From the IMG/VR virus record IMGVR_UViG_3300035689_000007, positions 1 to 64,000 of that record: a stretch of DNA of 64,000 nucleotides. One strand, given 5' to 3'. The DNA is from a virus. The first letter of the stretch is position 1, and each line of letters opens with the position of its first letter. The position numbers and the translations under genes were made by a program. Under the pieces are notes generated by a model that saw only the letters and a program-made list of their open reading frames with translations, was not told where the DNA came from and did no database searches. Shown here one piece after another: positions 40,201 to 56,126 of this stretch.

Positions 40201-41568
40201 AGTAACAAACTTATCTGTTGGCTCATTAGTTAATTCATATCCAAAATCTTTAACAGTAACTGGATCTGGAATAGAATCTAAATATTCTCTAATTTTACCG
40301 GGTAGCGGAGGTATGCTCTTATTTATAGTAACTACTTTTATGATTCCGGCGATCATATTTGTTGGAGTACCCGTATTTCTATTATTCCACTGCCACGTTA
40401 CGCTACATGCTGAATGATTAATAACTGGAAGTAAAGTAATAAAAACTTCATGATTTGTAGCATCACATATTTCCATAATCAAATCTAATAAATTCAATTG
40501 ATCATATCCTAAACGATAATGATATGGCAAGGTGGGTAAACCGCTTAAATCCACAACATATTTTAGCCCACGAAAATAAATATATCCACCATATCCGGCA
40601 TTTACATATTCTTGTTTTTGACTGTCGCTTAGTGGATTATTAACAGTTAAACCCATCATATAGTTGACAGCTTGGGCAACTCTATAGTATGGTATACCGG
40701 CGTCTGTTCTCCTTGACATACCAGTGCCAGTTATTGGAAAACCAGTATACAAAGATTTAATGTATATGTCTGCCTGTTGCGCCGCTCGATTAACAGCATT
40801 ACTAGTTGGTAATCCCAAACTTCCATAATATACATCAGTACCAGTTCCATCGGCTTGTAATTTTTTAGAGACTGAAGGGTTGTCAAATGATCTTTGTAAA
40901 GCATTGTCTAATACGTCATGCTCTAAAAATCCATAAACATTAAGTAGGTTAGCATTGTTGGCTGTTGACCCAGCGTAATTATTAAGAATTAAAACACAGT
41001 TAGATAAAATTTCTCTTGGATCAGTAACAATAACATTATATAGTGTTCCTCCATCTGGACTTTGTGTTTGAGTATAGGCTTGTAATATACCACCAAATAC
41101 AAAATGATAATATCCTTTATCGCCACCTGTAACGTTGCCAAAATTAGTACCGGGAGTCCAATCAAAACTGGGAACTATGGCATCATTTGTACCATAATAA
41201 TCATCAAACGCTTTTTTGAAAGCTTCATCTACAGTAGCTCTTATTCTACCAAAATTAAAAAACACTGGAGTACCAACTGGTGGAGGTCTAAATCTATCTC
41301 CCGGAATCGCTCCATCTTCTCCAACTCCGTCGTGATATACATCGTGTCCTTGGCCTATAGGTGTTTGGTCTGAAATATTAAAAGAATCAACAGCTAAATC
41401 TACAGAAAGTTGTGAAGAAGTGTCTCCAAATCCAGCAGTAACATTAAAACCGGCAATAGAACAGCCCAAAAAAGTTTGCTGTTGCATAATGTAGGGACTT
41501 GGAAAACTAGACCCAACCGATCTACTTGTTGAATGTGCTGTAGCCATAGTTATGTCACCGTGGGCCAA
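37288..41568 (-). CDS. Putative tail tip / baseplate hub-like protein (1426 aa)
   Basis: N-terminal FLGCSI..F...L.V.L, FGGILQ, VTDPREIL; C-terminal beta hairpins then coiled coil; downstream of the TMP. True start may be 41547 (MATAH). Confidence 0.65.
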   Translation of the reverse strand: MAHGDITMATAHSTSRSVGSSFPSPYIMQQQTFLGCSIAGFNVTAGFGDTSSQLSVDLAVDSFNISDQTPIGQGHDVYHDGVGEDGAIPGDRFRPPPVGTPVFFNFGRIRATVDEAFKKAFDDYYGTNDAIVPSFDWTPGTNFGNVTGGDKGYYHFVFGGILQAYTQTQSPDGGTLYNVIVTDPREILSNCVLILNNYAGSTANNANLLNVYGFLEHDVLDNALQRSFDNPSVSKKLQADGTGTDVYYGSLGLPTSNAVNRAAQQADIYIKSLYTGFPITGTGMSRRTDAGIPYYRVAQAVNYMMGLTVNNPLSDSQKQEYVNAGYGGYIYFRGLKYVVDLSGLPTLPYHYRLGYDQLNLLDLIMEICDATNHEVFITLLPVINHSACSVTWQWNNRNTGTPTNMIAGIIKVVTINKSIPPLPGKIREYLDSIPDPVTVKDFGYELTNEPTDKFVTGADEVAMYYFTRYQAPTPVFGMHQINNSLNQQILPYYGTLAPKTVTIPRGFGSYQQITLDAGELLADGVGKYYVATELELRAASISMERWIEFLLMYNDKYYESVEGGDIQDMYYAQVLPGNGQILELSNTYDITVPRCVSPPHPSEDGFVAGTDIPLNPCSPPYGWPLYWQRAKNIGVPMAGSAGFSARAQKQLNNLNSNRKVYGTNSSNSPNQPTYESSMGATIQTTAQASIIAVADKVSRMGLQNVKTIYAFIKKVADECLGKKFLVKIPQRVNKRYNAENIVTNTINTLGEPTKFIVSGPFGFMPRDPTNSPTWTMPTSIIDTSPLMNENMLNPPEALVLSEPTGYAGALKIGFNRANEEYSFNYYPEPEGGWYYFATGIKPSALLLEPIDNKFLKSDNGRIKPYIRYDHSHIISLSSFSKDSYSQQFIDPIRNAYIPDLSYVMENSNNPTDKLDETAPAFQNVVNIGGTSTTPVNACAFIKVDLDPDFYFAPPIIMASSQLHGNQYNFHRITTEPKDVLEADGCKLVKSYGMRYLYIYPIVTQSPEFQELEQMDLSKCWDYVEQEKPKHVYALITLPERAVPTMTTRFRDGMNMQINAMNLKHYLLLDVVRGMPGLNSAGPTTGGEYRAIDYMYMPSGERGRRIQFAAKEAIKKAYQGLTYDLTNRVNIISPSPIYPDLVALPLRSVERCYGPWLSAYTDFEQIGGKMEFIHDESLAPWNYGGYNLMDKAGRLLAEFGTSASLMNERGGFTIPTAPSGWTLGTYLLNLGPLVTNISTKVDSDGISTTVSMDIYTASFGKMQKQRSDNIKQLNRLKQKITDERNDLIRRNMGKGQKSNVTFAKMINQLQSVESFANRFYSSHEKGHSQVGTMITASVTNSPGSAPNSNGAYQSPNSQQDVHGGMMSNDQMAYAASILASNPVDAGVSESTTGQANITDIFYPYSRSGGDGLPTIKNGQLPNGTQYG

Positions 41569-42404
41569 TAAAATGGATTGTTAAAAAAAGAATTAATCCA
41601 AGTTCCATCATTAGTAAAATCTACCAGCGTTGCATTGGAATATGGGCTATATGTTGTAATACGTGTAGCATCTATATTTCTATTTCTTCGTTGTATAGGA
41701 CTATCTGGTGTAACTATAAATGGAGTTAAGTTTCCTCTAACTATTATTTCGCCACTACGTCTATTTGGTGTAAAACTAAAGTTTACTAGATTATAGTGTA
41801 CATAATTAAAAAATTCCAAGTCATCGTAAGAAAAATATTCTTGTGAAGAAGAGAGTGGGTTTTTACTGCTACTACCATAAATAGTATCTGGATTATTAAT
41901 ATTTGTTAATCTAGGATATGTATTAACACCTTGTGTAACATTAAATTGTGGTTTTAATATAGAAACTGGTTGGTTTGATGCTAATGTTGTTGATATATAT
42001 CTATTTGTACCAACTATTTGATCTATAGATAATATAGTGCCAAGAAAAGCAACAGAAAGAAAACCTTTCCTCCATGTAGCGCCGGTGGAAAAATCAACGA
42101 ATTCATCGTCTAACGACTCAAGAGATTGTGGGTAGTGAGTCCAAGGATCTTGATATTTAAATCTGTCATGAAATTCTGTTTTAACTTCATCTTCGTATTG
42201 TTCTTGAAGTTTATCAAACTCTTCTCCAAGCGCATTAGATAATGCGGGGGTATATGGTCTATATTGTCTGCGGGTATTTTCAAATGATAAACTCTTAAAA
42301 AGAGCAGAAATTAATCCATCTAGAAAATATTCTTTGTTAGAATTATTTATATCTGAATAATCTGGAAATGTATTATGTTGATCTGAGTTTGTTGGATATG
42401 GCAT
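41550..42404 (-). CDS. Hypothetical protein in the tail module
   Basis: Long ORF tightly packed between tail genes. Confidence 0.7.
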   Translation of the reverse strand: MPYPTNSDQHNTFPDYSDINNSNKEYFLDGLISALFKSLSFENTRRQYRPYTPALSNALGEEFDKLQEQYEDEVKTEFHDRFKYQDPWTHYPQSLESLDDEFVDFSTGATWRKGFLSVAFLGTILSIDQIVGTNRYISTTLASNQPVSILKPQFNVTQGVNTYPRLTNINNPDTIYGSSSKNPLSSSQEYFSYDDLEFFNYVHYNLVNFSFTPNRRSGEIIVRGNLTPFIVTPDSPIQRRNRNIDATRITTYSPYSNATLVDFTNDGTWINSFFNNPFYWPTVT

Positions 42405-42406: not shown

Positions 42407-44134
42407 TTATTCACTAAGTTCATATGTCCAAGAAAGATTTAAAGTATATCTACCCTCTGTTGCATTCCAAGTTTCTGATGGCGCATTTTGAAAATATCTT
42501 CTAATGCCCGGTTCGTTTGCCGGGCTATATATACCTATTAATCTATCTAGCTCTCCTCTAAATGGTTCTAAAAGACTTGGTTTAGAATATAACAAGTTTC
42601 TTCTCAAAACGGGATTTTCTAAATTACTAGCTCTACCATATCCTATCCAAGTTTGATCTAATATAACCTCAATAGATAAATCTCGTTTAAATTCAGTTCT
42701 ACCATAAGTATATTGCAATACCGGGCCGGTTGGTCTGCCCAATATTGGTATAACAGCAAAAACATCTCCGGGATAAGTATCGGTAACTTCGATTTTTTCT
42801 GACATAACTTTAGAAAAGAAATTTGTGGGCCTAGAATCAAACTCAAGATTATATGTAATTTCACCATTTATTGGATTAGTACCTATAGCTACTGATAGTG
42901 GTTGACTATTTAAAGTTAATCCAGTAAGAGCATTACATCGTTTGTATATAGAAGATAAATTACCAAATTGACCATTGCTAGTTAATTTTTGATAAGCAAT
43001 TTTAGCCCTTTCAGCTTCTCCGCCCTCCATAGAGGATAGAGTAGTTCTATTTGTAGTATCAAAAATTCCAGAAGCGTACTCTTCTGGTATCCACTCTGAT
43101 AATCCTTTAATTGTACCATCGATAGAGATTTTATGATATGGAGAATCTTGACCATTTGTGATATTGTGACTAAATGTTTCAATGGCCTTAGATCCAGTTG
43201 GAGCAATAATAAACGTATCTGTAATACTATAAGAACCTTCAGACACGTTTTCTTGTTCAGATCTTTCCCAATTATATAGTTGTAATTGATCACTTCCTGC
43301 ATTGTCAACATTGCGCGTATCGCTAAAAATTTTATTACGTATTGCTAAACGTAGAGCGAGTGGATCTGTGTCTGAAATATAATGATAAAGAAAACTTTTA
43401 GCTAAAATACAAGATTTTACTCCCGGTATATCTTGTCCAAGCATTAGTCCAGTTTGTGGTCCATCTCTGCCTATTATGCCGCTATACACCGCATCATAAA
43501 TAATTGGTTTACCAGTTGCCTGCAATGTCCTAGTATATTTGAAATATCTATTAGTAATTGGATAATGTTGTGCGTCTGATCCGTCATGATAACAATATCC
43601 ATATTCACCAGTTATCGGCTCTATAGATATATCCTCACTTAGGCTACTTATAACAACTGGGTTGTTAAGCTCTGGAAATTCTTCTATATTACTGCAATTT
43701 ATTCCTGGAGTAGAATAGCTTCCTTCCCACTTATCATAAGCTTTAAAGGTAGCGGTGAATTTACAATATTGCCAATATGTTCCTTCCTCAAAATCTAAAG
43801 TTTGTAATATTGGAAAATATGTGGCTTTACAAGCGCCATTAACATCGTTTAATTCTAATCTAAGTTTTTTATCGGTAAAATATTCTCGTAATCTTTCTTG
43901 CCCCTCAAATGCTGCGCCGACTCTAGTACCACCCGGAGTAGATTGTGGTGGAGGATTAAAAGTACCTTGAGCAGAACCAGAAGTCATAATATAACCATTT
44001 AATGTTATATCATATTCTTCTCCATAAGACCTTTGATGATCTCTAAGGTGATTAACAGAAATAGATACAAAAGGCGTTGGATCTAAGAATATTCGTCCAC
44101 CTTCGGTATAAATATATAGCGCATTTGTAGCCAT
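42407..44134 (-). CDS. Putative tail protein (distal-tail-like, beta-rich)
   Basis: PTPFVSIS, YDITLNG, alternating beta strands, ends YTLNLSWTYE. Confidence 0.6.
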   Translation of the reverse strand: MATNALYIYTEGGRIFLDPTPFVSISVNHLRDHQRSYGEEYDITLNGYIMTSGSAQGTFNPPPQSTPGGTRVGAAFEGQERLREYFTDKKLRLELNDVNGACKATYFPILQTLDFEEGTYWQYCKFTATFKAYDKWEGSYSTPGINCSNIEEFPELNNPVVISSLSEDISIEPITGEYGYCYHDGSDAQHYPITNRYFKYTRTLQATGKPIIYDAVYSGIIGRDGPQTGLMLGQDIPGVKSCILAKSFLYHYISDTDPLALRLAIRNKIFSDTRNVDNAGSDQLQLYNWERSEQENVSEGSYSITDTFIIAPTGSKAIETFSHNITNGQDSPYHKISIDGTIKGLSEWIPEEYASGIFDTTNRTTLSSMEGGEAERAKIAYQKLTSNGQFGNLSSIYKRCNALTGLTLNSQPLSVAIGTNPINGEITYNLEFDSRPTNFFSKVMSEKIEVTDTYPGDVFAVIPILGRPTGPVLQYTYGRTEFKRDLSIEVILDQTWIGYGRASNLENPVLRRNLLYSKPSLLEPFRGELDRLIGIYSPANEPGIRRYFQNAPSETWNATEGRYTLNLSWTYELSE

Positions 44135-44135: not shown

Positions 44136-47100
44136 TTATAGACTTCCTCTTGTCCTAAGTTGTAGTATCGTGTCCGTTTTGGCTATACCACTACTATATA
44201 ATTCCATTACTCCAGATGGAGAAGCTAAACCACTAGCTATTAGTGGCATATTGCCAGAAGATTGTAATAAATTGAATGTATACAAATCCATCATATTATA
44301 CACATTATTGCTTTCTGGACCATAATTCACTAGTGATAAAGAGCCAGAAACAAATGGTGGAGCGCCATCTACAAATAGATTTATATCTTCATATACAGGC
44401 GTTCCATGTAAAAATGATCCACGAATATGTTCAATATACGGTCTATGTACAACATAACCGCGAGGAACCTTATCTTGTCCAGACGCCTCTATAAATATTT
44501 CTCCATTAATATTTGATAATACAATTCCATTAAATAATACCTTTTGATCAAAATTATTGTCATTCTTAAATGTAAATGTTGTATAATCACTTGGTTTTTG
44601 ATATTCTCCATAAACTCTACCAGCAATAAATGTGTCTGGATGAGAGAATGCTGGCCTGAGACTTCTTAACATTCCGTCGAAAGCATATGTTGAACCAATA
44701 TTATCAAATACATTTCCACTAGTTGAGAATGGATGGTTCATAGCCCCAACTGCTAGTATATAGTCTCCATCGACTCTTCTAGCTCTATCTATTGCTATAG
44801 CGTTTCCAAAGAATGTATTTTCTCCAGAGTTTTGAATTCTAGCATATGGACCTTGTGCCACAAGTTTGTGTATGGGAGTCCACTCTTGAGTTTTAGAACC
44901 CCAATTATTAATTTTGTTTTCATATGTAAATACAGCGCCGTGATTAAACACTACAGTTCCACTAGCTCCATATTGTTCTCTTTCGGAGGGGATTGCTAGA
45001 TCATGTATTATTCGTTGTTGAATATCAAATTGCTCATTAAATTCTTTTCTTATGAACGGCGCTGGCGTGTCTTCTGAATAGTTTTCAAACCTATGGCAAG
45101 GAGCAGATATAGCTAATATATCTCCATTTAGAGCTATGTCATATCCAAACATATCTGATACGAACGCTAGATTCTTTAATTTATCATTAGAATAATTATT
45201 GTTACCAATAACTGTAGAAGAGTTGGATGTTGTTAATCCGCTAAAACCAACACTTATTTCTTCTGGTCTAAACTTTCTTGTTACCGTCCAAGGTATTCCA
45301 GTTGTTTTTTGCTTAGACAGATTTACAGAACCAAGACCACTTCCAACATTTCCAACCTTTTCAATTAAATATACTGCGCCAGCACCGCCGTTGAATCCTA
45401 CTTCTTTGCCATGCTGCATACCGCTAGCAATAATAGTAGACCAAGGAGTAATTTCTTCCGTATTGTATGGTGAGAATGGAGCGCCAACATATACTTTGTC
45501 TTTATGTATCTTTACAGAATATCCAAATAAATCTCCGGGATATCCAGAATAAAATACATCTAAGTCTAAATGATCTTTTCCGATAGCTCTTAGTATTGGT
45601 GGAATTCTACTATAAATTCCAGCGTCTCTATAGAGAGTTCCATTATATGTATCTTGTATTTTAGATGTAGATCCGTAGTGTTGTTCAACTATGTTAAAAT
45701 TATCTATATACCAAGCTTGTCTTAGTGCCGCTTTTTCTTCTTCAGTATATGGTGGAGGTGGAGATAATTCAATTCTAAAGTGTCCGATATCGCTATTGAA
45801 TAATGGCAACATTGGATCAGTTGGTTGTGGCGGTTTTTTACCGGCTATTTCTATTTTACCTTCTAAATCACTATATTTTGTAGCTGGTAAGCTGTTACTT
45901 GTAAATTGACCAAAGCGATAATTTAATCCACTGTTTTCTGGATAAGCATTAACTAATCTACTTGGACTTGATCTTTCTGGTGATATAATCTTAAATGCTG
46001 TTTCATATTGTCTTCCAGATCTTGTTGTATTAAAATTAGTATTTGGATATAGACTTGCTAGGAACCAAGCTAGATTTGGATTAATAGTATTTCCACCTTC
46101 GGACAGAATTGTTCTACCTTGTATTAAACTGGGATCACTTATAACTGTAATTCTAGATTTATTATATCCATTGAAATATCCACCTTGATGATAAACTGTC
46201 TGCGCCATAACTACTGGGCCGTCAGCAATATCAACACCCGGTGTGCCATATCCTTCTGGAGGATCATTTGAACATATACGATTATTTGATATGCAATATT
46301 TAGAGCTATCTGTACTAATTTCTCTATTAAATAATTGTGTATACGAAGTATCTGGTGTGCCGGGAATGGTAACTACTTCTGTTTCATAAATAGGCCACCT
46401 AGCTGTAGAAATAATAGTATTTGATGGTATTCTAACACCAGAAACGCTCAACAGTCTAACAGTTCGTAATTGTTTTGGATTTTGTTGTAATGGATAGCTA
46501 GCAGAATGCGTAAAATACATATCTAGTGTTTCTTGACCAGATGGAATTTGTACATATAGGTCAAGACTATCGTATAATTCTTTTGTATATCCGGCAGACA
46601 CATAAGTTTGTTTAACGTTATTATTTTCATCAGTATCAACTAAAAGTATATTTCTTCCTACTGGTCCAATTGGTTGATTAAGAACCGACGTATTTACAAA
46701 CTCTGAAGCCAAACAATTTCCAACAACTAAATTAATTGGAGAAATTTCTAAAGAACTTTCTTTCAAAATATTGAATCTTAACTTGAATAAGTTATAGTCA
46801 TCATGCTCTTCAAGTTTTTCTGGAACTGTAAACGATACTTTAGTTATGCCAGTATTAAATTTTGGAACTCCGATAGAAAATTGTTCTGTGTCTGTAACTG
46901 GAGCGTCAAAAAAAGCTAAATTAATAGCATTCCTATTATTAATAGGAACAAATTCATGTGTAAATCCGTTTGGTACTGGGTACGGTGGACGATCTGAATA
47001 TGGAACTGTAACAGCGCCATCTCCATATCCGACATAAGAATTACTACTTGCAAAAGAAGAATTTTCGTCTAGCCCATCATATAAATATGTGTTTGCGGCA

Positions 47101-50100
47101 ATTGATAATGAAGATGTTAACTGGCCGATGTTATCAGTTCGAATATCAGATCTATCGGCATATTTATTTTTTCCTTCTAAGAATAGCGGACTCATTGATA
47201 GTCCTAATTGTTCGCAAATATACTTTGCCACATTTGCAGATCTAACATTATAAGCAGATATTGTAGATGTCATAGAGCTAGAATCTAAATTATATGTATA
47301 TGTTGTATTATTACTTATTTCATCTCCTAATGATGGCTCTTGACCATAAGTAATTATCAATGTTTTATTTCCCATGTCTAAGAATCGTTTAATATTCTGT
47401 ATATCTTCACTTGATGGCATATTGTCAGTATTAGCAATCCAAGCTGCTGTATAACCTTTAGAAATATCATATAGATCTTGTGTTAAAACATTTAAGTCGC
47501 CCATATCAATACCAACATTAGTCAATTGTGCCTGTATATCAGATTTATTATATCCATCAGTATATGAAGTTCTATTTGTAAATCCGCCAACTTGTGCAAC
47601 TTTTGCATTACCATCAGCATCAGTTGCTAATAAGTTAAAGTATAGATTAATATTTCTATCGCCCGCAGAGGATAATAAAATATTTCTACTTTCATACATA
47701 GTAGCAGCAATTAAAACTATTTTTGAAGTTGTACTATATTGTTCTGAAGCAATCATGCAAACATTGGGTTTGATATTAATCAATTTAGTTGCAGATTGAT
47801 TAGAGATCGTAGATCTAGCTTGTAGTACAGCATCGTTTCCATTATATTCACTTGGATCAAAAAACAAACTATTACTTACAGTATTATTAATATTGTAGTT
47901 TAATTCTGTATAATTACTGTCATCGTTTGACCAAATAAATGCAACGCCACTATATACAGCATTTCCAAATGTTGTTCTTACAGATGTAGAAGAATCATAA
48001 CCAACTAATTTGGATCTTAATTCTTCAGTGGGTGCAGAGCCGGGAACAATTATTGTTTTAGGTATTGCTTCATATGCTGACAAGATCGGTACTGGCTCAC
48101 TCTTTGTGTTGAAATTGGGATTTTTACCTCTTTCTTCTCCTTCGCAGCCCCAATCAACAATATTGTGTGTGCCATATTGAAAACCAAAATTTCTTTCATA
48201 ACTTATCCATGCTGGACCTCTGGGAGTCATTATCTCACATTGATCTATATATTTGGATCTTAAATCTCCCTCATGAACAATGGGCATTTCGCACTTATCA
48301 TGAAGTTCTCTATATGTTCTTTTTCTTTCAAAGTCAAAACTGAATGGATCAGAAGAACCACTTGGTGGTTTATCGCATATATATAAATCTGATATGTTTG
48401 TATCATATAATCTAATGTCTCCAACACCAGAACCTCTTAATGGAACTGGATAAGCTATGGCGGGAGTAGATTTAGCTGGTACAAAAGAGTTTTGAACATT
48501 GTAAAATGTATTTGTGTTTTGCATTAATGCTTCATATTGATTTCTAGCAGCATAAATGCGCATATTGACATCTAGTTCTTCTAATATATAGTTAATAATG
48601 TTGTTTGAGTTAAAGTAAGCGCCATTGGCTTCCCACTTGGGATCATTTCCAACCAAGACCAAGTGCCTATCGCCTAAAGATAACCAATCTCTAATATTGT
48701 CAATTATCTCATCGCTAGCAGCATTAATGGCTGGAGTAATTATAAAGGCGAGTCCAGCATCTTCTGGTATTTTTAAACCTTCAGCAAAACTTGTTCTAGA
48801 AAATGTATAACCCATACTATTGTATAGATTATTCATAGTAAAACTAAATAATCCAGAATCCTGCGGTGGACTTAATAGTTCGTGTAGATTTCCAAACTTG
48901 TAATACTCTACAACCTTTTTATTGTGTGGATAATAATTTCTACTTTCTAACAGCCTTATAGCTCCAGCATTGGTATAATTTTGCCACTGCCAAGGCTCTC
49001 CACCAAATGCAGTTTCTTGTCCAGATTTTATGTCATATCTAAACCACGTTTGTGTGTAGTCTCTTTCGCCCAAACTGTCTGTTGGAGAACCGATAGCAAT
49101 TAAAGATCCGTCTGAATTTATATCAACACTGTATCCTAATCTTGGTGTTGGTATATAATTCGCCCAAAGGTCTGACCAAGCATCAAAACCAATAGGAACA
49201 CCCATTTCATAAATTAAGTTGTACCTTTTAATTTGTAGGTTTTCTAAAAACTTGAAGTAAGCAAAGCGTAAACCTTCTGAAAACTTATTATATGTTTCTA
49301 AATTAAGATTTGCTATAGATTCTGTTATTGGTAATTTTTCTAAATATTCACTATATAGATCATAACTTTCACCAAATGTAGCATTATTAATTTCTTCATA
49401 GTATCTAGGTTGTAAGAAAGATGTGATAAAATATAAGCTGTTTAATAGCTGATTATTGAAGTTTTCGTTATATTCAAATACCTGCACTGAATGTGGAGAA
49501 TATGGAGATCCTATAGCAATAACTTTGCCATCATCACTTATTGCAACATCGTGTCCAAATCGATCAGAAGTATCATTTGTATAAGAAACTGGAGATTTGA
49601 TTTCTTGAACAACTTTAAACTGTCCATTATTTTCTCTTTCAAAAATATAAACAGATCCACCACTTGGTGGTGGGTAATTAAATTCACCAGCATTTTCATT
49701 GAAGCTACCAAGATTATTTGCTATTAATTTTTGTACATTGTTTTCTTGTAGTGTTTCAATATCAGTTAAATCTAATAAGCAGTTAATAGATTGTGCTATC
49801 CAATTTTCATCAACGTCAACCGTTACGTTAACAAATCCTTCTGCCGGATCTCCATCAAAATCCACCAATCCATTATTCTTAGAATAGTCTTTATAGTAAT
49901 CTATGAACTTATCTAGCGCCCCCTTTCTAAAAGGAATATTGTATCCTAAAGATTTAGAACCAAGTGATCTAGAATCATCTATATAGATTCCTAATAGCGG
50001 CGGTATGCCACTATGTATAGCGCTAGATGTTAGTGGAAATACTTCATGAAAAATATCTTTTAGTTCTTGAAGTATGACATCTTCTCGCTCTTGATATTCT

Positions 50101-53100
50101 GGAGTATTTACATTATAACTGAAATGTCTATGAGTAAGATACTTACTTACAAATGGCGGTTTTGGCTCTAAGAAATCTTTAGAAGTTTCACCAATACCAA
50201 TATTTGAACCAAGCATTGGTTCGCAAAGTATTACTTTAATATCAAACTTAACTGATGGGTCACAGAAATATCTATATACTAAATCTCTGTCTGATAGTTG
50301 ATCTAAAATTTGTCTCCAATTAGCATTATCTGGATCACTAACTAATTCGTTATTAAATACAAATAATCCTATAGTTACTGGAGTAGTTTGTATGGGAGCA
50401 AAAGTTCTACTCCACTCAGCGCCGGGTCCACCGGCAATTAAAATATCTGTATTGTTTCTACGGGCAGAATCTAATGAGTATCCTAATTGCCTTCCTTCTT
50501 GACCAACTATCCAATTAGTTCCTATACCCGTGTACGGCAACAAGTTACCATATCTATCTCTAAAAGAGATATTCCTCTTATAAAAATAATCTCTTCTCCA
50601 ACCAGTTGGTAAAACAATTTCTTGTTCTAACACAAAGTTAGATTTATCTAATTGATTGCTCCAATCATAACCACTTGGCTCTGGATTTTTTCTATAGACA
50701 TAAATTTTTCCTGCATTATTAATTTCGTAATTTGTTTCATCGAAAATATTTTCATATGGACAACCAATCATAACCCTATCATCAAGAACTGTAACACTTT
50801 TACCAAATTTATTTCCAGAAGAGTTCACACTTGGTGTTAATTGTATTCCACTATATGCAACATCTTCATTTGTTCCATATTCCCATTCTGTCATTTCTCT
50901 TGGAACTTGTAGTATTTTATCTGTTCCTGTTTTGCCAGTAATAGTAATTGTGTATGGCGCTTGTGGTATTAAATTACTGAATTTTCTAATTCCATAAAAA
51001 TGACCGCTATATGGAATATTAGTACCAAAGGCACCAACATCTGGATTTGTGTAAACAGTTATTGGTCTAACGACTCCACCGTTAACACATTCTGGATCAT
51101 ACCACAGTGTGTCATGTGTTATAAGTTGATCTTCTTGACACTTAATAGTGCTGATTGTATCACAATTACCATAGCATATGGTTTGTACTCCTCTAATTTC
51201 ATCAATCGCAGGAACTGACGCAAATTGATTATCTAATAATGAAATTTCTTTACCAAAATTTGTGCCATCCCACTTAAATGATTCTAGTTCATTATCTCTT
51301 TTGGAAATTGGTTTTACGTGATATAGATAGAGAGGAAATTGAGAATTAATGTTTTCTTCTTTTGGTCTACTGTTGATATATAAAGCAATATTTGCACTTG
51401 TTGGTTCCCAAGTTCTGTTTGGACCAAGTACATATAAACCAATAGATTCTTCTGTTGAAATATCAAAAGCAGAAAGCGGAAAACCAGCCAACAACATAAA
51501 ATTAAGTTGATCAACCGCTGGCTGATTTACATCATCATATGAAAAGAGATTTAATGAGTTGCTTATAGTATTTTCTATTAAGCCGTTAACATAACAAATA
51601 ATAGAATCTTCTTCATTGTCATATCCACCTTCTACAAAAAGGCTCATGCCTAGTGGATTATTATTTCCAAATAAACTTCCAAAATTTGAATTCGATGTTG
51701 ATGCATTGCCAACTTGAATGGTATATAATGGCATTGATACATTACTGTTAAATACTCCAGAACTAATTAATGACATTATACCAGATTGTTCAATATATGT
51801 TACGCCGCTGGTGTAGATATTAATTTGGTTATTGAAAGCGCTAACATATCCCACTTCATATAATGGTAATGGAGCTTCTTGATAAGCTTTACCAGATTCA
51901 TAAATTGGTAAATTGTTATTTATTTCATCAGATTGGTTAATTCCATTTAGTTCTATATCTACTGAGTGTAATTTAATTTGTGATTTGTTATATGTGCCAG
52001 ATGGATAGATAACATCGTATTGCACAAACATTTGATTTATGTCTTTAACAAAATAATTTTCTTCAAATTCTTTGTATGTAATAGTTTTATCGAAAAATGC
52101 CCAAGGTTCAGATTCATTATCCTTTAAATCTCCCAACTTAAACTTACTTTCTATCTTATTCCAGCAATCTTTTGGATTGAGATAATGAGTAGATCTGCTA
52201 ATCAAGCCAAAATTTTTGGTTGGAAATAATACACTTTCTTTAGATGGAGTATATAAACTAACTATAAGTTTAGCACCAGTTTTGCCATTGGGCCAATTAA
52301 TAGTAGAATCACATTCATGTTGTACAACGCTGTTAACAATTAAAGAATCTTCAGCAACTATATAACTTCTTGGTAAGTTTTTAACCAATCTTGGAGGTAA
52401 AGAATAAAGCCTGTCTTCATTACCAGAAAGACTAAATCTTAACATGTCATTTTCTACTTGAGAATGATATGAAATACCAGATAAATGTATTGAGTTTGGT
52501 AATGTTAGATTGGTTCTGTCTTGATAAGTCTTTCCATCATTATAAAAATTATGATATAGATAGTCTTTTCCATTTCTAAATTTCATAATGTCATACGCAA
52601 CACCAAAACTACAATATTTAAAAGCTCCTAATTTCCAATCTTCTGTTTTTTCATCAATAAATTGCCATAGTTTATTTCTATCATTTATGTGTGAGTCATT
52701 TACATTGCAAAAATGTGCTAAGTGGGTGTTGAAAAATAATTCAATATTGTCTTGCTGTTTAGAAGAATCTGGATTTGCATTATAGACTAGATTACCACCA
52801 CCAGTATCATTATGAGTTGATATACCAATTTCAGAAATAAAAGCATTGATGCCTATTCCAGATCCAGAAGAATATCCAAATAACAAATCACTATTACCAC
52901 TACTTAATACAAACTCATTTGATTCATCACATAGTATGTTTGTGCCACTGGCAATTGCGGCAATTTCACTATTAGTAAATAGTCTTAATTTACGAGATTG
53001 ATTATCATTATAAGTCAATGCAATAGAAAGTGGATATTGATAATTTTCATATGATATAGAATCTTGAAGTTCAATCAAGTTACCATTAGAATCTTTGGCA

Positions 53101-56100
53101 TATGCTGAAAGATATCCATCTTTATATCCTAAAGCATATTCTAGTTCTTCTGCTTCGTCCCATTTAGAAAACAATACTCCAGAATTCCACAAGTTATAAT
53201 CTACACCGCTCATGTTATAATCTGGAGAAAATCTTAAAAATACAGCAAAACCACTAGATGTTGGAACATTACCAAAATTCAAATAACCATTAACACCAGA
53301 AATGCGAACAGCGGAGTCAAACGAATCAAGTATTTTTCCATATAATTCGTGACTATTATCGGCCCAATCTAAACTGGTGTAATCTCTTATAGCGGTGGGA
53401 AATAATGATTCATTATTAAATCTTAAACCAAGATTTCTAACTAAACTAGAAGATAGATTTGCAGTAAACAAACCGCTTACAGTACTGGGAGCATCTTCCA
53501 AACTAGATAAAACATAATTATTGTGCGTATTGTTGAAATCATAATACCCAATAGTAAATGGTTGATCAAGTTGTGGATTACTAAAAGCAAAATCAAATGG
53601 AACAGGATCAAATGGGCCACCAAAAACATTACCGCTGCAACCGCGCCATCTTCTAGCATAATTTGTTTTTAGCGTCGTTTCAGAAGTTGAATATGCGTGT
53701 GGAATATTTTCTATTAGAGATAAAGGTGAATTTAAAATGTTGTATGGTGCGTCTACAGATTTTCTGGATGATGGATAAAGTCTATTTTGTCTTCTGGCTA
53801 TTTCCCTACTAAGAAAACCGGCGGTTGATAGTGGAAGAGCGCCACCGGGTTTATACTTGACAATGAGATTTGCGCTAGCAATCGAAGCGCCACTAGGAAT
53901 TGGATATATATCTATATATAAAGATTCAAAATAACTACTCATAGAGTAGTCTTTAGACATGCCCAATTCTACTTTGTCTTTGTATATCTTTAGTGGTACA
54001 GTATACTTAGTAAATGAAGTGCTATTGACTAGTGGAGATTGAGTAATTAAATAGTGATCTCCAGAATCGTTGGGAACAATATTTTTTGAGAAATATGATC
54101 GTTTATCAGATAGAGATTCTGAAGAAATTCCAAGATCATAAACGGGACCAAAACCAGATGTAGTTGGAATAGTTCCGCTACCAGTAATTGAATTTTGTAG
54201 AAATCCACCAACATCAGAAGTAATGAATAAAACTTTATCATCACTATAACCAACAACGTCTATTGGAAAGTCATTTGTTCCGATAGCTTTTTTAGCAACA
54301 ATTTCTAAGCTAATATCTTCAATAATAAAGAAAGAATCATCTCCATAAACTAATTCTATATCAGCTTTTTTAAATGGATTTGTATACGTGTTACCAAACG
54401 AAAAGTCACCACCCCTTGGAAGTTTTACAGAAAACGGTCTTTGATGCTCATATAGTAACTGAAGTTTGCCAGATGGTGCCGTATGAGAAACTATATTTCC
54501 ATCAACATATAGATTAGTAAGTCTATCTATAAGTTCTAATTGGTGTTTGTCGTCGTTAACAGTATTATTGTATGTAAGATTGTCAAGATCTGGAGAGGTT
54601 TCCCAAACATTATTTAGTCCCGTTGGATAAATATTATTATCGAATGTGTTTAGTAAAACCTTGGTTGGATATATAACTCTTTCTATCCAAGTTCCAGTAC
54701 TTTGAACCCCTAAGAAGAATGGTAGTTCAGAATCTCTCAATATACCTTCCGCTCTACCTAGATTAGCAATTTCTATTGCTGAAATTCTAATAGCGTTAGT
54801 AGGTCTAATGTGATAATCTTGAGATTGTGCAGATAATGGAGCGCCATCCACAGCAAGATAATCGTTTTCAGAAGTATTAACAAATTTGTCATTCAAATTG
54901 GCTTCAAAGGCAAAACCTTTGGCAAATTCTTCTGTAAATGGTTGATAAAAACAGTTGCCTGTAATGTCGAAACTTAACGTATATCCACTTGGTTCTCCGA
55001 GAATGGGATATTTTAATTTCCAAGTATTTAATGTTGCATAATTTATCTCTGGCTCGCTAACATATGTAATGTAATTAAATTGGTCTTTGTCTTCAAAGTT
55101 TGCCTCGCCACGAACTTGAAAATCTTTATATTTAACAATCAAATTGCCAGAAGGATCTTCAAACTTAATATTTGTTATGTCGTATAATGTTGGCTGATCT
55201 GTTTCATAATTAAATGTTGGCGCGGCGGCGCGGAAAAAAAAGAAACTTTCTAGTGGAGTAATTTCTGGAGTATTAACAAAGCACTTATACTTGAATGTGC
55301 CTTTAGTATAAATAGACGATGGAGTAATATATGTTGAGTCATCGTCTGAAATAATATTTCCTACGCGAGAATCTTTAGTAATATTACCTAGACACACGCC
55401 CTCATTAATACTTTCAAATAGATTAACCGGCTTAATTTTCTCATTAACAAGAAAAATATTATTATGTTCGACTGTAATATCTTGAATAGGAAATAATTTT
55501 TGTGTTGGCGTGAAATTATCAAATTGGTTTATTTTGTTAAAATGCCCATGTAATTTTTCAAAATATTTACTTTTAACAATACCAGAGCCAGATATTCTAG
55601 TCCTAAAATTATTAATAGGGCGATTAAGACTAGCTTTTAATTCAAATCTTGTAGATAGTCTAGATAGTTTAAGATTCCAAATACACTGTGGTCCTCTAGA
55701 GATAACTAATACAGAATTATTAGAGTCTAGTGGATCATAAACACTACTTGGAATAGCATCCCATCCACCACTAATAATGCTTGGACTATTTATATTGATT
55801 AATTGAGCTGGTAGATTTGTGGGAGATCTACGTATTAATAATTCGGATGATAATACTTTGATATTTCCAGAAACTTTAATAATTTTTGGAGCAAAGCTTG
55901 GAAAATTAGATACAGTATTAGCAAATAGAGAGCCAAATGTGGGTGTTGAATTAGTTCCAGACCCTCTCTTAAATCCAGAATATATTACACTTACATTAAG
56001 TTTACTTAGATTGCCAGTACCTCTTGATCTAACAAAAGGTTGTACTGTTTTTTTCAAAAACGCTTTGACTTTAGCGTCTGGCGCTATTTTTATTTTTAGT

Positions 56101-56126
56101 CTCGACGATCCATCACAAAGAAACAT
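44136..56126 (-). CDS. Giant (3996 aa) tail/adhesin protein with LamG-like domain and seven FG-GAP repeats
   Basis: LamG-like segment (YLNFG...GVLFSKW...IALTYND...LRLF); FG-GAP repeats FGKSV, LGYSL, FGHDV, LGYSV, FGYSV, FGYDI, FGNAI. Confidence 0.8.
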   Translation of the reverse strand: MFLCDGSSRLKIKIAPDAKVKAFLKKTVQPFVRSRGTGNLSKLNVSVIYSGFKRGSGTNSTPTFGSLFANTVSNFPSFAPKIIKVSGNIKVLSSELLIRRSPTNLPAQLININSPSIISGGWDAIPSSVYDPLDSNNSVLVISRGPQCIWNLKLSRLSTRFELKASLNRPINNFRTRISGSGIVKSKYFEKLHGHFNKINQFDNFTPTQKLFPIQDITVEHNNIFLVNEKIKPVNLFESINEGVCLGNITKDSRVGNIISDDDSTYITPSSIYTKGTFKYKCFVNTPEITPLESFFFFRAAAPTFNYETDQPTLYDITNIKFEDPSGNLIVKYKDFQVRGEANFEDKDQFNYITYVSEPEINYATLNTWKLKYPILGEPSGYTLSFDITGNCFYQPFTEEFAKGFAFEANLNDKFVNTSENDYLAVDGAPLSAQSQDYHIRPTNAIRISAIEIANLGRAEGILRDSELPFFLGVQSTGTWIERVIYPTKVLLNTFDNNIYPTGLNNVWETSPDLDNLTYNNTVNDDKHQLELIDRLTNLYVDGNIVSHTAPSGKLQLLYEHQRPFSVKLPRGGDFSFGNTYTNPFKKADIELVYGDDSFFIIEDISLEIVAKKAIGTNDFPIDVVGYSDDKVLFITSDVGGFLQNSITGSGTIPTTSGFGPVYDLGISSESLSDKRSYFSKNIVPNDSGDHYLITQSPLVNSTSFTKYTVPLKIYKDKVELGMSKDYSMSSYFESLYIDIYPIPSGASIASANLIVKYKPGGALPLSTAGFLSREIARRQNRLYPSSRKSVDAPYNILNSPLSLIENIPHAYSTSETTLKTNYARRWRGCSGNVFGGPFDPVPFDFAFSNPQLDQPFTIGYYDFNNTHNNYVLSSLEDAPSTVSGLFTANLSSSLVRNLGLRFNNESLFPTAIRDYTSLDWADNSHELYGKILDSFDSAVRISGVNGYLNFGNVPTSSGFAVFLRFSPDYNMSGVDYNLWNSGVLFSKWDEAEELEYALGYKDGYLSAYAKDSNGNLIELQDSISYENYQYPLSIALTYNDNQSRKLRLFTNSEIAAIASGTNILCDESNEFVLSSGNSDLLFGYSSGSGIGINAFISEIGISTHNDTGGGNLVYNANPDSSKQQDNIELFFNTHLAHFCNVNDSHINDRNKLWQFIDEKTEDWKLGAFKYCSFGVAYDIMKFRNGKDYLYHNFYNDGKTYQDRTNLTLPNSIHLSGISYHSQVENDMLRFSLSGNEDRLYSLPPRLVKNLPRSYIVAEDSLIVNSVVQHECDSTINWPNGKTGAKLIVSLYTPSKESVLFPTKNFGLISRSTHYLNPKDCWNKIESKFKLGDLKDNESEPWAFFDKTITYKEFEENYFVKDINQMFVQYDVIYPSGTYNKSQIKLHSVDIELNGINQSDEINNNLPIYESGKAYQEAPLPLYEVGYVSAFNNQINIYTSGVTYIEQSGIMSLISSGVFNSNVSMPLYTIQVGNASTSNSNFGSLFGNNNPLGMSLFVEGGYDNEEDSIICYVNGLIENTISNSLNLFSYDDVNQPAVDQLNFMLLAGFPLSAFDISTEESIGLYVLGPNRTWEPTSANIALYINSRPKEENINSQFPLYLYHVKPISKRDNELESFKWDGTNFGKEISLLDNQFASVPAIDEIRGVQTICYGNCDTISTIKCQEDQLITHDTLWYDPECVNGGVVRPITVYTNPDVGAFGTNIPYSGHFYGIRKFSNLIPQAPYTITITGKTGTDKILQVPREMTEWEYGTNEDVAYSGIQLTPSVNSSGNKFGKSVTVLDDRVMIGCPYENIFDETNYEINNAGKIYVYRKNPEPSGYDWSNQLDKSNFVLEQEIVLPTGWRRDYFYKRNISFRDRYGNLLPYTGIGTNWIVGQEGRQLGYSLDSARRNNTDILIAGGPGAEWSRTFAPIQTTPVTIGLFVFNNELVSDPDNANWRQILDQLSDRDLVYRYFCDPSVKFDIKVILCEPMLGSNIGIGETSKDFLEPKPPFVSKYLTHRHFSYNVNTPEYQEREDVILQELKDIFHEVFPLTSSAIHSGIPPLLGIYIDDSRSLGSKSLGYNIPFRKGALDKFIDYYKDYSKNNGLVDFDGDPAEGFVNVTVDVDENWIAQSINCLLDLTDIETLQENNVQKLIANNLGSFNENAGEFNYPPPSGGSVYIFERENNGQFKVVQEIKSPVSYTNDTSDRFGHDVAISDDGKVIAIGSPYSPHSVQVFEYNENFNNQLLNSLYFITSFLQPRYYEEINNATFGESYDLYSEYLEKLPITESIANLNLETYNKFSEGLRFAYFKFLENLQIKRYNLIYEMGVPIGFDAWSDLWANYIPTPRLGYSVDINSDGSLIAIGSPTDSLGERDYTQTWFRYDIKSGQETAFGGEPWQWQNYTNAGAIRLLESRNYYPHNKKVVEYYKFGNLHELLSPPQDSGLFSFTMNNLYNSMGYTFSRTSFAEGLKIPEDAGLAFIITPAINAASDEIIDNIRDWLSLGDRHLVLVGNDPKWEANGAYFNSNNIINYILEELDVNMRIYAARNQYEALMQNTNTFYNVQNSFVPAKSTPAIAYPVPLRGSGVGDIRLYDTNISDLYICDKPPSGSSDPFSFDFERKRTYRELHDKCEMPIVHEGDLRSKYIDQCEIMTPRGPAWISYERNFGFQYGTHNIVDWGCEGEERGKNPNFNTKSEPVPILSAYEAIPKTIIVPGSAPTEELRSKLVGYDSSTSVRTTFGNAVYSGVAFIWSNDDSNYTELNYNINNTVSNSLFFDPSEYNGNDAVLQARSTISNQSATKLINIKPNVCMIASEQYSTTSKIVLIAATMYESRNILLSSAGDRNINLYFNLLATDADGNAKVAQVGGFTNRTSYTDGYNKSDIQAQLTNVGIDMGDLNVLTQDLYDISKGYTAAWIANTDNMPSSEDIQNIKRFLDMGNKTLIITYGQEPSLGDEISNNTTYTYNLDSSSMTSTISAYNVRSANVAKYICEQLGLSMSPLFLEGKNKYADRSDIRTDNIGQLTSSLSIAANTYLYDGLDENSSFASSNSYVGYGDGAVTVPYSDRPPYPVPNGFTHEFVPINNRNAINLAFFDAPVTDTEQFSIGVPKFNTGITKVSFTVPEKLEEHDDYNLFKLRFNILKESSLEISPINLVVGNCLASEFVNTSVLNQPIGPVGRNILLVDTDENNNVKQTYVSAGYTKELYDSLDLYVQIPSGQETLDMYFTHSASYPLQQNPKQLRTVRLLSVSGVRIPSNTIISTARWPIYETEVVTIPGTPDTSYTQLFNREISTDSSKYCISNNRICSNDPPEGYGTPGVDIADGPVVMAQTVYHQGGYFNGYNKSRITVISDPSLIQGRTILSEGGNTINPNLAWFLASLYPNTNFNTTRSGRQYETAFKIISPERSSPSRLVNAYPENSGLNYRFGQFTSNSLPATKYSDLEGKIEIAGKKPPQPTDPMLPLFNSDIGHFRIELSPPPPYTEEEKAALRQAWYIDNFNIVEQHYGSTSKIQDTYNGTLYRDAGIYSRIPPILRAIGKDHLDLDVFYSGYPGDLFGYSVKIHKDKVYVGAPFSPYNTEEITPWSTIIASGMQHGKEVGFNGGAGAVYLIEKVGNVGSGLGSVNLSKQKTTGIPWTVTRKFRPEEISVGFSGLTTSNSSTVIGNNNYSNDKLKNLAFVSDMFGYDIALNGDILAISAPCHRFENYSEDTPAPFIRKEFNEQFDIQQRIIHDLAIPSEREQYGASGTVVFNHGAVFTYENKINNWGSKTQEWTPIHKLVAQGPYARIQNSGENTFFGNAIAIDRARRVDGDYILAVGAMNHPFSTSGNVFDNIGSTYAFDGMLRSLRPAFSHPDTFIAGRVYGEYQKPSDYTTFTFKNDNNFDQKVLFNGIVLSNINGEIFIEASGQDKVPRGYVVHRPYIEHIRGSFLHGTPVYEDINLFVDGAPPFVSGSLSLVNYGPESNNVYNMMDLYTFNLLQSSGNMPLIASGLASPSGVMELYSSGIAKTDTILQLRTRGSL
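44294..44304 (-). promoter_or_regulatory. Second copy of TGTGTATAATA, candidate internal late promoter
   Basis: Identical 11-mer about 160 nt upstream of the 44134 start, inside the 3' end of the giant gene. Confidence 0.4.

What the first reader, a model, noticed from the sequence alone, without database searches (positions are those of the whole stretch)
44670..50820. Integrin-alpha-like architecture: seven dispersed FG-GAP blades with a MIDAS-like insert
Seen: seven FG-GAP-type repeats (about 50800, 50480, 49550, 49130, 45520, 45140 and 44800), each with a later G-x-V-Y-type strand, are spread over about 2000 aa. The second repeat is interrupted by about 250 aa containing LGIYIDDSRSL (DxSxS at 49965-49979). 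Established: integrin alpha chains are seven-bladed FG-GAP propellers, some with a vWA/MIDAS I-domain inserted near blades 2-3. Inference: a phage receptor-binding propeller scaffold displaying inserted, possibly metal-dependent, adhesion domains.
Basis: partly seen in the sequence, partly recalled or inferred. Interest (0 to 1): 0.7.

Follow-up and report, generated by a model that had tools for sequence, protein, structure and literature searches.

The report
Giant phage tail protein, split propeller
A 3,996-residue protein encoded right after the tape-measure gene of an uncultured aquatic phage carries seven integrin-type propeller repeats pulled far apart by inserted domains. It is probably a host-surface adhesion platform, but the suspected integrin-style metal-binding (vWA) insert could not be confirmed.

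Summary
ORF 44136-56126 (minus strand, 3,996 aa) lies 9 nt downstream of a 2,565-aa tape-measure gene. It holds seven FG-GAP repeats at exactly the stated places (Pfam FG-GAP_2, E=2.6e-15), all conserved in about 60 relatives.

- **Insert in repeat 2 (about 233 aa):** a confident alpha/beta domain with a family-conserved [DE]x[ST]xS. The motif follows the fourth strand, not the first. No VWA profile, PDB profile or scan of 1.84 billion proteins links it to vWA, so it is an orphan domain.
- **Not shown:** closure into one seven-bladed ring and any receptor-binding role.

The family is widespread in aquatic viral metagenomes, always after the tape-measure gene, and has no match in GenBank phages. 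First-stage notes of this scan describe the same architecture on two other genomes.

The parts
44136..56126 (-). Whole giant ORF (3,996 aa, P0001). It starts 9 nt after the stop of the tape-measure gene.
56136..63833 (-). Context: tape-measure protein gene (2,565 aa) directly upstream.
   Evidence: PF10145 E=3e-24; PHROG tape-measure families, E down to 7e-23.
51141..56126 (-). N-terminal module (residues 1-1662). It is conserved in the family, matches no known family, and is a separate gene in some relatives.
50826..51140 (-). Cys-rich junction (CYGxC...) and the segment before blade 1 (residues 1663-1767). In 9 of 63 loci the gene is split in or beside this motif; five show an ATGA stop/start overlap, the others overlap differently.
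   Evidence: low to moderate pLDDT
50607..50825 (-). FG-GAP blade 1 (residues 1768-1840; FG at 1774).
   Evidence: Pfam hit; AF2 strands at pLDDT above 85.
50355..50495 (-). FG-GAP repeat 2, part before the insert (residues 1878-1924; LG at 1881).
49656..50354 (-). Insert 1 (residues 1925-2157): an orphan alpha/beta domain placed between FG-GAP motifs 2 and 3.
   Evidence: pLDDT about 90 and DSSP order; present in all 64 sequences compared; found only in this family among 1.84 billion proteins.
49965..49979 (-). Conserved [DE]x[ST]xS (D2050, S2052, S2054) at the C-terminal end of a strand of insert 1.
49461..49655 (-). Remaining strands of blade 2 and the first three strands of blade 3 (residues 2158-2222; FG at 2190).
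49239..49460 (-). Helical insert inside blade 3 (residues 2223-2296), poorly conserved.
48867..49238 (-). Last strand of blade 3 and blade 4 (residues 2297-2420; LG at 2330).
45567..48866 (-). Insert B (residues 2421-3520) between blades 4 and 5: a nested multidomain array.
48387..48860 (-). GIFT/GATase1-like domain A, N-terminal half (residues 2423-2580). This is the most conserved stretch of the module.
46233..48386 (-). Nested insertion inside domain A (residues 2581-3298). It holds beta-sandwich(es) with CBM-like matches and a paralogous GIFT-like domain B (about 2824-3019), and it contains most of the module's least conserved loops.
45927..46232 (-). GIFT/GATase1-like domain A, C-terminal half (residues 3299-3400).
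   Evidence: VIA model ranges reach residue 944 of the model. The family HMMs of the two halves hit the compact relative P0197 only 56 aa apart.
44607..45566 (-). FG-GAP blades 5-7 (residues 3521-3840; FG at 3534, 3660, 3773).
44139..44606 (-). Conserved C-terminal domain (residues 3841-3996), unassigned.
42407..44134 (-). Context: 575-aa gene directly downstream, syntenic in 60 of 63 related loci, no known family.
37288..41568 (-). Context: 1,426-aa gene, syntenic in 55 of 63 related loci, no known family.

Best explanation
The C-terminal 2,330 residues of a giant tail-tip protein are one integrin-alpha-like FG-GAP beta-propeller whose seven blades are interrupted by inserted domains.

**Inserted domains**
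- An orphan alpha/beta domain with a conserved [DE]x[ST]xS loop, inside blade 2.
- A helical hairpin inside blade 3.
- Between blades 4 and 5, a GIFT/GATase1-like domain that is itself split by a second GIFT-like copy and CBM-like beta-sandwiches.

**Proposed role**
The gene follows the tape-measure gene, so the protein should sit at the distal end of the tail. There the rigid propeller would hold these modules out as a multivalent platform that binds host surface glycans or other envelope structures.

**Shown**
- The seven conserved repeats.
- The propeller fold of blades 1-4 and its integrin likeness.
- The alpha/beta nature of insert 1.
- The GIFT-like and beta-sandwich folds of insert B, and their nesting.
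- The tail-gene position and synteny.

**Inferred**
- Ring closure.
- Virion location.
- Adhesion, and any metal dependence.
For: **Repeats**
- Pfam FG-GAP_2, E=2.6e-15.
- A family-trained HMM finds six of the seven repeats and nothing else in the protein.
- Motif residues are invariant at the seven positions.
- The number and order of repeats are kept in a relative only 23-27% identical, P0197.

**Propeller fold**
- The AF2 model of residues 1650-2440 has pLDDT of mostly 85-97 over the blades.
- The Foldseek top hits are integrin alpha chains, E=4.6e-9.

**Tail context**
- The ORF starts 9 nt after the tape-measure stop.
- The order tape-measure gene, giant gene, 575-aa gene, 1,426-aa gene is kept in 55-60 of 63 IMG/VR loci.

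**Insert B**
- Sub-threshold DUF4350 and GldG-family Pfam hits in relatives.
- GIFT domains are proposed sugar binders (PMC7226087).
- Nesting: the HMMs of the two halves hit P0197 56 aa apart, against about 720 aa apart here.

**Conservation pattern**
- The least conserved stretches lie mostly inside the nested insert. The blades and the core of GIFT domain A are the most conserved.

**Precedent**
- FG-GAP propellers occur in other viral structural proteins, including a cyanophage S-TIM5 virion protein.
Against: - Ring closure of blades 1-4 with blades 5-7 was not demonstrated by any model.
- There is no virion proteomics or imaging.
- No part of the protein matches a known receptor-binding, Dit, Tal or central-fibre family.
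- Fold similarity of the GIFT-like and CBM-like domains shows no ligand.
- The architecture is fixed across the family, unlike the cassette swapping typical of many receptor-binding proteins.
- The integrin Ca2+ loops (DxDxDGxxD) are absent.
Confidence: 0.55

Rival explanations
1. The protein is a structural baseplate or hub scaffold, not an adhesin. The propeller and its inserts serve mainly as docking sites for other tail proteins, such as the conserved 575-aa and 1,426-aa neighbours or separate fibres, and the true receptor binders are encoded elsewhere.
For: - The architecture and all inserts are invariant across relatives 26-60% identical. This fits a structural core better than a fast-evolving receptor binder.
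- Beta-propellers are common protein-protein hubs.
- Synteny with two more conserved large genes is tight.
- A 1,545-aa ORF with tail-fibre PHROG hits lies elsewhere in the record.
Against: - The inserts match GIFT-like and CBM-like folds, which are associated with glycans.
- The nested insert contains hypervariable loops.
- About 2,300 aa is far more than known hub proteins need.
Confidence: 0.2
2. The seven repeats do not form one intramolecular ring. Blades 1-4 and 5-7 would be two partial propellers that stay open or complete each other between subunits of an oligomeric tail tip.
For: - About 1,100 residues separate blades 4 and 5.
- The ends of the four-blade model are poorly predicted: model residues 1-120 and 704-770 have pLDDT below 50.
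- No model of the closed ring was obtained.
Against: - Exactly seven repeats are kept in all relatives, including the compact P0197, where blades 4 and 5 are only about 300 aa apart.
- The curvature of the four-blade arc fits seven-bladed propellers at 2.2-2.8 A.
- Domains inserted in loops return the chain to the point where it left.
Confidence: 0.12
3. Insert 1 is a true, if divergent or rearranged, vWA/I-type domain with a functional MIDAS-like metal site. The protein would then be an integrin alpha-I analogue with metal-dependent ligand binding.
For: - [DE]x[ST]xS is conserved at the end of a strand.
- The element order b1-a1-b2-b3-a-b4-a-b5-a-a parallels vWA up to b5.
- A second conserved acidic/amide residue, D/N1926, sits at the end of the first strand.
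- The insert lies between FG-GAP motifs 2 and 3, as the integrin I domain does (10.1101/2023.11.05.565221).
- There is a weak BFVD hit to a Pithovirus vWA protein, rank 49, E=2.9e-3.
Against: - No VWA profile match at E<=10.
- No VWA-family hit among 52 homologues.
- No hit among PDB sequences.
- The profile finds only this family among 1.84 billion proteins.
- No isolated I-domain or vWA chain is among the 50 Foldseek PDB matches listed, all at E<=9.1e-3.
- The motif follows strand 4, not strand 1, and only five strands are predicted.
- D becomes E and S becomes T in a quarter of relatives.
- The integrin I domain arose in chordates from a collagen gene (10.1101/2023.11.05.565221), so any likeness would be convergent.
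Confidence: 0.12
4. The GATase1-like domains are active enzymes, for example amidotransferase-like or glycan-modifying, so the protein is a tail-borne enzyme rather than a passive binder.
For: - The fold class includes enzymes.
- Insert B has conserved Cys and His residues: C2584, C2612, H2618 and C2630.
Against: - The best structural matches are non-catalytic members: IFT52, ThuA-like proteins, OST48 and the GH42 trimerisation domain.
- No catalytic-family Pfam hit was found.
- The conserved Cys and His residues lie outside the GATase1-like core, in a loop-rich stretch.
Confidence: 0.05

Closest known systems
Integrin alpha subunits with an inserted I domain (alpha-M, alpha-X, alpha-L, alpha-E; e.g. 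PDB 7usm, 4nen, 7p2d)
   Same: - Seven FG-GAP repeats.
- An alpha/beta domain is inserted between FG-GAP motifs 2 and 3.
- A DxSxS-type loop sits at the end of a strand of that insert.
   Different: - The insert has no detectable sequence or profile similarity to vWA.
- The motif follows the fourth strand.
- No Ca2+ loops.
- Two further insertions, one of about 1,100 aa and nested.
- No thigh/calf legs, membrane anchor or beta subunit.
- It sits in a phage tail gene cluster.
- The integrin I domain is a chordate acquisition (10.1101/2023.11.05.565221), so the likeness in layout would be convergent.
Bacterial and viral FG-GAP_2 (PF14312) repeat proteins, including FG-GAP proteins of uncultured Caudovirales (A0A6J5S3H5) and the cyanophage S-TIM5 virion structural protein H6WG31 (BFVD)
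   Same: - Same Pfam repeat family, above its cut-off.
- Structural matches at E=2e-6 to 5e-5.
- A viral structural context.
   Different: - Those proteins are 400-900 aa, too short to carry inserts of this size; whether their blades are contiguous was not checked.
- Here the blades are spread over about 2,070 aa with nested inserted domains, within a 3,996-aa protein.
- No sequence match by tblastn to any GenBank phage.
GIFT domains (GldG, IFT52 N-terminal domain, OST48/Wbp1) and ThuA-like/DUF4350 members of the class I glutamine-amidotransferase-like fold
   Same: - Sub-threshold PF14258 and PF09822 hits in relatives.
   Different: - All Pfam scores are below the gathering cut-offs.
- The first copy is split by a nested insertion of about 720 aa.
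- The setting is a phage tail protein.
- No ligand is known.
Central tail fibre and tip proteins encoded after the tape-measure gene (lambda gpJ, T5 pb3/pb4, siphophage Dit/Tal)
   Same: - The gene lies immediately downstream of the tape-measure gene.
- Very large size and a modular build.
- Conserved synteny with other large tail genes.
   Different: - No sequence or profile similarity to any of them.
- Propeller-based rather than built from FN3 or beta-helix units.
- Three to four times larger.

Membership tests
FG-GAP / integrin-alpha-type beta-propeller (Pfam FG-GAP_2, PF14312) | Repeat matches the family HMM above its curated cut-off | tested here: met
   56.8 bits against a cut-off of 23, E=2.6e-15, four stretches.
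FG-GAP / integrin-alpha-type beta-propeller (Pfam FG-GAP_2, PF14312) | Seven repeats, each with FG, GAP and a later GxxYxF-type strand | tested here: met
   Seven sites. Six are found by an HMM trained on four of them. Motif residues are conserved in 61-64 relatives.
FG-GAP / integrin-alpha-type beta-propeller (Pfam FG-GAP_2, PF14312) | Four-stranded blades arranged as a propeller resembling integrin alpha | tested here: met
   [not shown]
FG-GAP / integrin-alpha-type beta-propeller (Pfam FG-GAP_2, PF14312) | Closure of all seven blades into one ring | tested here: inconclusive
There is only indirect support: the repeat count, the curvature of the arc, and the compact relative P0197.
Integrin alpha subunit proper | Ca2+-binding hairpin loops DxDxDGxxD in the C-terminal blades | tested here: not met
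   No strict match anywhere in the protein; one loose DxNxDG in blade 4.
vWA / integrin I domain with MIDAS | DxSxS motif | tested here: met
   D2050-x-S2052-x-S2054, conserved as [DE]x[ST]xS. The bare motif occurs at the chance rate.
vWA / integrin I domain with MIDAS | DxSxS directly follows the first strand of the domain | tested here: not met
   In the AF2 model the motif follows strand 2044-2050. This is the fourth strand when 1915-1924 is counted as the first.
vWA / integrin I domain with MIDAS | Match to VWA-family profile HMMs | tested here: not met
   - PF00092 and PF13519 give no match at E<=10 in the whole record, while the controls ring in 14 and 12 of 14 genomes.
- 0 of 52 insert homologues hit a VWA family at E<=1.
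- No hit among PDB sequences at E<=10.
vWA / integrin I domain with MIDAS | Six-stranded doubly wound alpha/beta fold that superposes on vWA structures | tested here: inconclusive
   - The insert was folded only together with the propeller, which filled the structural hit lists.
- The element order is vWA-like up to the fifth strand, but only five strands are predicted.
- No isolated vWA chain is among the 50 Foldseek PDB matches listed.
vWA / integrin I domain with MIDAS | Divalent-cation binding | not testable with these tools
   Needs a biochemical assay or an experimental structure.
GIFT / DUF4350 / GldG-type GATase1-like domain | Fold similarity to solved members | tested here: met
   [not shown]
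GIFT / DUF4350 / GldG-type GATase1-like domain | Pfam PF14258 or PF09822 above the gathering cut-off | tested here: not met
   Window: 13.5 bits, E=0.088. Relatives: 19-27 bits against a cut-off of 30.4 in 6 of 9, and PF09822 at 17-21 bits against 34.7 in 2 of 9.
Phage tail-tip protein (Dit / Tal / central fibre class) | Gene immediately downstream of the tape-measure gene, in conserved synteny | tested here: met
Phage tail-tip protein (Dit / Tal / central fibre class) | Sequence or profile similarity to known tip or fibre families | tested here: not met
   - No PHROG hit at E<=0.01.
- No Pfam family other than FG-GAP_2.
- PDB profile searches of the N-module returned nothing.
- No tblastn match in 50,697 GenBank phage records.
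Phage tail-tip protein (Dit / Tal / central fibre class) | Presence at the tail tip of the virion | not testable with these tools
   The phage is uncultured, so virion proteomics or cryo-EM is needed.

The most novel reading that the evidence does not exclude
The alpha/beta insert in blade 2 is a functional metal- or ligand-binding module built on a vWA-like topology with swapped loop roles: an acidic residue after strand 1 and [DE]x[ST]xS after strand 4. A phage lineage would then have independently arrived at the integrin alpha-I design, a propeller with an adhesion domain inserted between repeats 2 and 3. It would have extended the principle to nested, Russian-doll insertions of glycan-binding modules, using the assembly as its primary host-recognition device.
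Probability: 0.15. Interest if true: 0.8.

Novelty: new variant of a known kind. Interest (0 to 1): 0.55.

Why it matters
**An uncharted lineage.** The family marks a widespread group of large (about 150-kb) aquatic phages with no cultured member. It was seen in 74 IMG/VR loci, more than 236 protein clusters, and Tara, JGI and ENA data. No gene of its tail-tip module matched a PHROG or Pfam family apart from the FG-GAP repeats, so it is a starting point for working out how these phages recognise hosts.

**Protein evolution.** The protein is an extreme, conserved case of domain-in-domain-in-domain insertion into a closed repeat fold. A compact relative preserves an earlier stage.

**Convergence with integrins.** If the blade-2 insert binds ligand, the layout would be a striking convergence with I-domain integrins.

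**Annotation.** The insert-1 domain and the N-module are orphan families worth defining.

Tried and rejected
**No verdict**
- Complex prediction on three pieces (blades 1-2, blades 3-4, blades 5-7). The tool's verdict was 'no answer (no support, and no evidence against)', because one control came too close. I use it neither for nor against ring closure.

**Searches that found nothing**
- ESM Atlas on insert 1: no usable hit and no model.
- PDB sequence-profile searches of insert 1 and of three N-module pieces: no hits.
- Foldseek of the insert-B model against PDB: nothing at E<=1e-3.
- hhalign of insert 1 against insert B: no relation, probability 0.4%. Insert 1 is therefore not a third GIFT copy.
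- VWA and VWA_2 HMMs on the whole record: nothing.
- megablast and tblastn of all parts against GenBank phages: no match.
- The search for related loci with single sequences: nothing. Only the alignment query worked.
- PHROGs on the giant ORF and its neighbours: nothing.
- Literature searches for FG-GAP or integrin-like phage tail proteins found no description of this architecture. One preprint notes diel-expressed FG-GAP genes in marine viruses.
- No tRNA in the window.

**Weak or misleading leads**
- The borderline hit P0202 from the 1.84-billion-protein search is an unrelated RCC1/cadherin protein.
- The DnaE half has no phage relative above 32% identity, so it gave no host clue.
- The preference of Foldseek for I-domain integrins could simply reflect avoided gap cost. 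I do not count it as evidence for a vWA fold.

Full report
**What is there**

The finding lies inside one ORF, 44136-56126 on the minus strand (3,996 aa, P0001).
- The window is the first 64 kb of a 78.6-kb IMG/VR virus record judged about 50% complete. Its G+C content is about 33%.
- The ORF starts 9 nt after the stop of a 2,565-aa gene (56136-63833). That gene is a tape-measure protein: PF10145 at E=3e-24 and PHROG tape-measure families down to E=7e-23.
- Downstream on the same strand lie ORFs of 575, 284, 1,426, 1,210 and 247 aa. None matches a Pfam or PHROG family.

**Check of the observation**

A motif scan finds FG-GAP-like repeats at residues 1774, 1881, 2190, 2330, 3534, 3660 and 3773.
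- Pfam FG-GAP_2 scores 56.8 bits against a cut-off of 23 (E=2.6e-15) on four of them.
- I trained an HMM only on those four repeats taken from 64 relatives. It also finds the repeat at 2331 (6e-7) and, weakly, the one at 3785 (0.012), and nothing else in the protein.
- The repeat at 1881 is not found by that HMM. It has the motif, and it forms confident propeller strands in the model.
- At the seven positions the G of FG, the P of GAP (H in repeat 7) and the G of the later GxxYxF strand are invariant or nearly so in 61-64 relatives. The later-strand G was not tabulated for repeat 3.
- DxSxS sits at 49965-49979 as stated. The bare motif is at the chance rate: three copies against 2.2 expected.
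- Its conservation is not chance: D/E 64/64, S/T 64/64, S 62/64.

**Blades 1-4**

I folded residues 1650-2440 with an alignment of 59 relatives.
- Mean pLDDT is 76.6, with mostly 85-97 over residues 1770-2349.
- The four blades also superpose on consecutive blades of seven-bladed WD40 propellers at 2.2-2.8 A.
- The Foldseek top hits are integrin alpha chains (E=4.6e-9).
- A weak sequence-profile hit to integrin alpha-6 agrees.
- The integrin Ca2+ loops are absent.

**Insert 1 (residues 1925-2157)**

It is confidently predicted (pLDDT about 90) as an alpha/beta domain.
- If strand 1915-1924 is counted with it, the order of elements is b1-a1-b2-b3-a2-b4-a3-b5-a4-a5. [DE]x[ST]xS sits at the end of b4, and a conserved D/N1926 sits at the end of b1.
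- This order parallels vWA up to the fifth strand. In vWA, however, the motif follows b1 and there are six strands.
- Every sequence-based test for vWA was negative:
  - Pfam VWA and VWA_2 gave no hit at E<=10 anywhere in the record, while the controls rang.
  - None of 52 insert homologues hits a VWA family at E<=1.
  - The PDB profile search returned nothing.
  - A profile search of 1.84 billion representative proteins returned only 95 hits. All but one chance hit are members or fragments of this family.
- The domain is therefore an orphan that occurs only in this context.
- I could not fold it alone, and the propeller filled the structural hit lists. Its relation to the vWA fold therefore stays open. 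Without coordinates I could not read the sheet order.
- The integrin I domain lies between blades 2 and 3 and was acquired in early chordates from a collagen gene (10.1101/2023.11.05.565221). Any likeness here would be convergent.

**Other inserts**

Blade 3 carries a helical insert of about 74 aa (residues 2223-2296), which is poorly conserved.

Between blades 4 and 5 lie about 1,100 aa. I folded residues 2420-3520 (mean pLDDT 77.1, pTM 0.45).
- The best matches are non-catalytic members of the class I glutamine-amidotransferase-like fold:
- Relatives give sub-threshold hits to DUF4350 (6 of 9) and to the GldG family (2 of 9). These fall at two separate places, which indicates two such domains.
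- GIFT domains are proposed sugar binders (PMC7226087).
- The first copy is discontinuous. Its matches span model residues 4-944, yet only about 157 of the 190-210 aligned residues can come from the N-terminal piece.
- A distant full-length relative, P0197 (2,950 aa, 23-27% identical, seven repeats, DTSAS in its insert 1), settles the nesting. Family HMMs of the two halves (residues 2440-2580 and 3290-3400 here) hit it at 2303-2376 (2.5e-14) and 2432-2483 (3.5e-7), only 56 aa apart. The HMMs of the two flanking stretches of the nested part (residues 2600-2800 and 3060-3280) find nothing in it. The HMM of the second GIFT copy hits the same single domain (4.3e-10), so the two copies are paralogues.
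- The architecture is thus propeller > GIFT domain > (beta-sandwiches + second GIFT domain).

**The family**

- More than 236 protein clusters of 2,200-5,000 aa were found in Tara, JGI, ENA and Logan data.
- 74 IMG/VR loci on contigs up to 174 kb encode relatives.
- Every segment, inserts included, is present in all relatives compared.
- Length variation lies mostly in the N-module.
- In 55-60 of 63 loci the order tape-measure gene, giant gene, 575-aa homologue, 1,426-aa homologue is kept.
- In 9 loci the gene is split in or beside a CYGxC motif, at about residue 1663 of this protein. The stop and start overlap, as ATGA in five of them, so the C-module of about 2,300 aa is an independent product there.
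- No part of the protein matches any of 50,697 GenBank phage records.
- First-stage notes of this scan describe the same layout on two other genomes.

**How it probably works (inference)**

- A gene of this size placed directly after the tape-measure gene, in conserved synteny with other large tail genes, most likely encodes the distal tail-tip or central-fibre protein.
- The propeller would be a rigid scaffold.
- The inserted modules would contact the host envelope, probably glycans. These modules are an orphan alpha/beta domain with a conserved acidic/hydroxyl loop, two GIFT-like domains and CBM-like sandwiches.
- The least conserved stretches of the C-module lie mostly in the nested insert, while the blades and the first GIFT core are the most conserved. 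That fits variable contact surfaces on a fixed frame.
- Ring closure, virion location, ligand and metal dependence are not shown.

**Comparison and novelty**

- FG-GAP propellers occur in viral proteins. BFVD hits include giant-virus proteins, an uncultured Caudovirales FG-GAP protein and a cyanophage S-TIM5 virion protein.
- A preprint mentions FG-GAP genes of marine viruses.
- I found no description of a tail protein whose blades are spread over about 2,070 aa by nested domain insertions.
- I class it as a new variant of a known kind: a phage tail adhesin or scaffold built on a known repeat fold.

**Limits**

- Both folding jobs went to partial constructs, so no model holds all seven blades.
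- The complex job gave no verdict (listed under Tried and rejected).
- The host is unknown.

Noticed in passing
window 51130-51145 (about residue 1663 of P0001); L014, L020, L023, L029, L032, L033, L043, L047, L072 near locus position 9,990: In 9 of 63 related loci the giant gene is two genes, split in or beside a conserved CYGxC motif. In the five clearest cases the N-module ORF ends just after CYGxC, the C-module starts with an overlapping ATGA, and a further Cys follows. The Cys-rich junction may hold the two polypeptides together.
   Followed up: partly
P0197 (2,950 aa): A compact, distant full-length relative keeps seven canonical FG-GAP repeats and insert 1 (with DTSAS). It has only about 300 aa between blades 4 and 5, with an unsplit GIFT-like domain. 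It looks like an earlier stage of the nesting, and its C-module is small enough to fold in one job. Its genomic context could not be fetched.
   Followed up: partly
window 51141-56126 (residues 1-1662): The N-terminal module is strongly conserved over residues 200-1400. It matches no Pfam, PHROG or PDB sequence family. Most of the length variation of the family (3,700-5,600 aa) lies here.
   Followed up: partly
window 41550-42404: The 284-aa gene between the conserved 575-aa and 1,426-aa tail genes has homologues in only 3 of 63 related loci. It is a variable slot inside an otherwise fixed tail module.
   Followed up: no
L079:10718-15355 (record positions 73717-78354, outside the window): A 1,545-aa ORF on the same strand hits tail-fibre PHROGs (phrog_9942, E=2e-24). 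The nine other ORFs scanned between it and the tape-measure gene have no PHROG match, apart from one weak tail-fibre hit (E=9e-4).
   Followed up: no
window 48260-48380 (residues about 2584-2630): Invariant or nearly invariant C2584, C2612, H2618 and C2630 lie in a loop-rich stretch at the start of the nested insertion. They could form a metal site or disulfides.
   Followed up: no
window 18754-20346: The N-terminal half of the split DnaE polymerase has no relative above 32% identity among 50,697 GenBank phage records. The phage lineage is therefore far from cultured phages. No tRNA gene is present in the window.
   Followed up: partly
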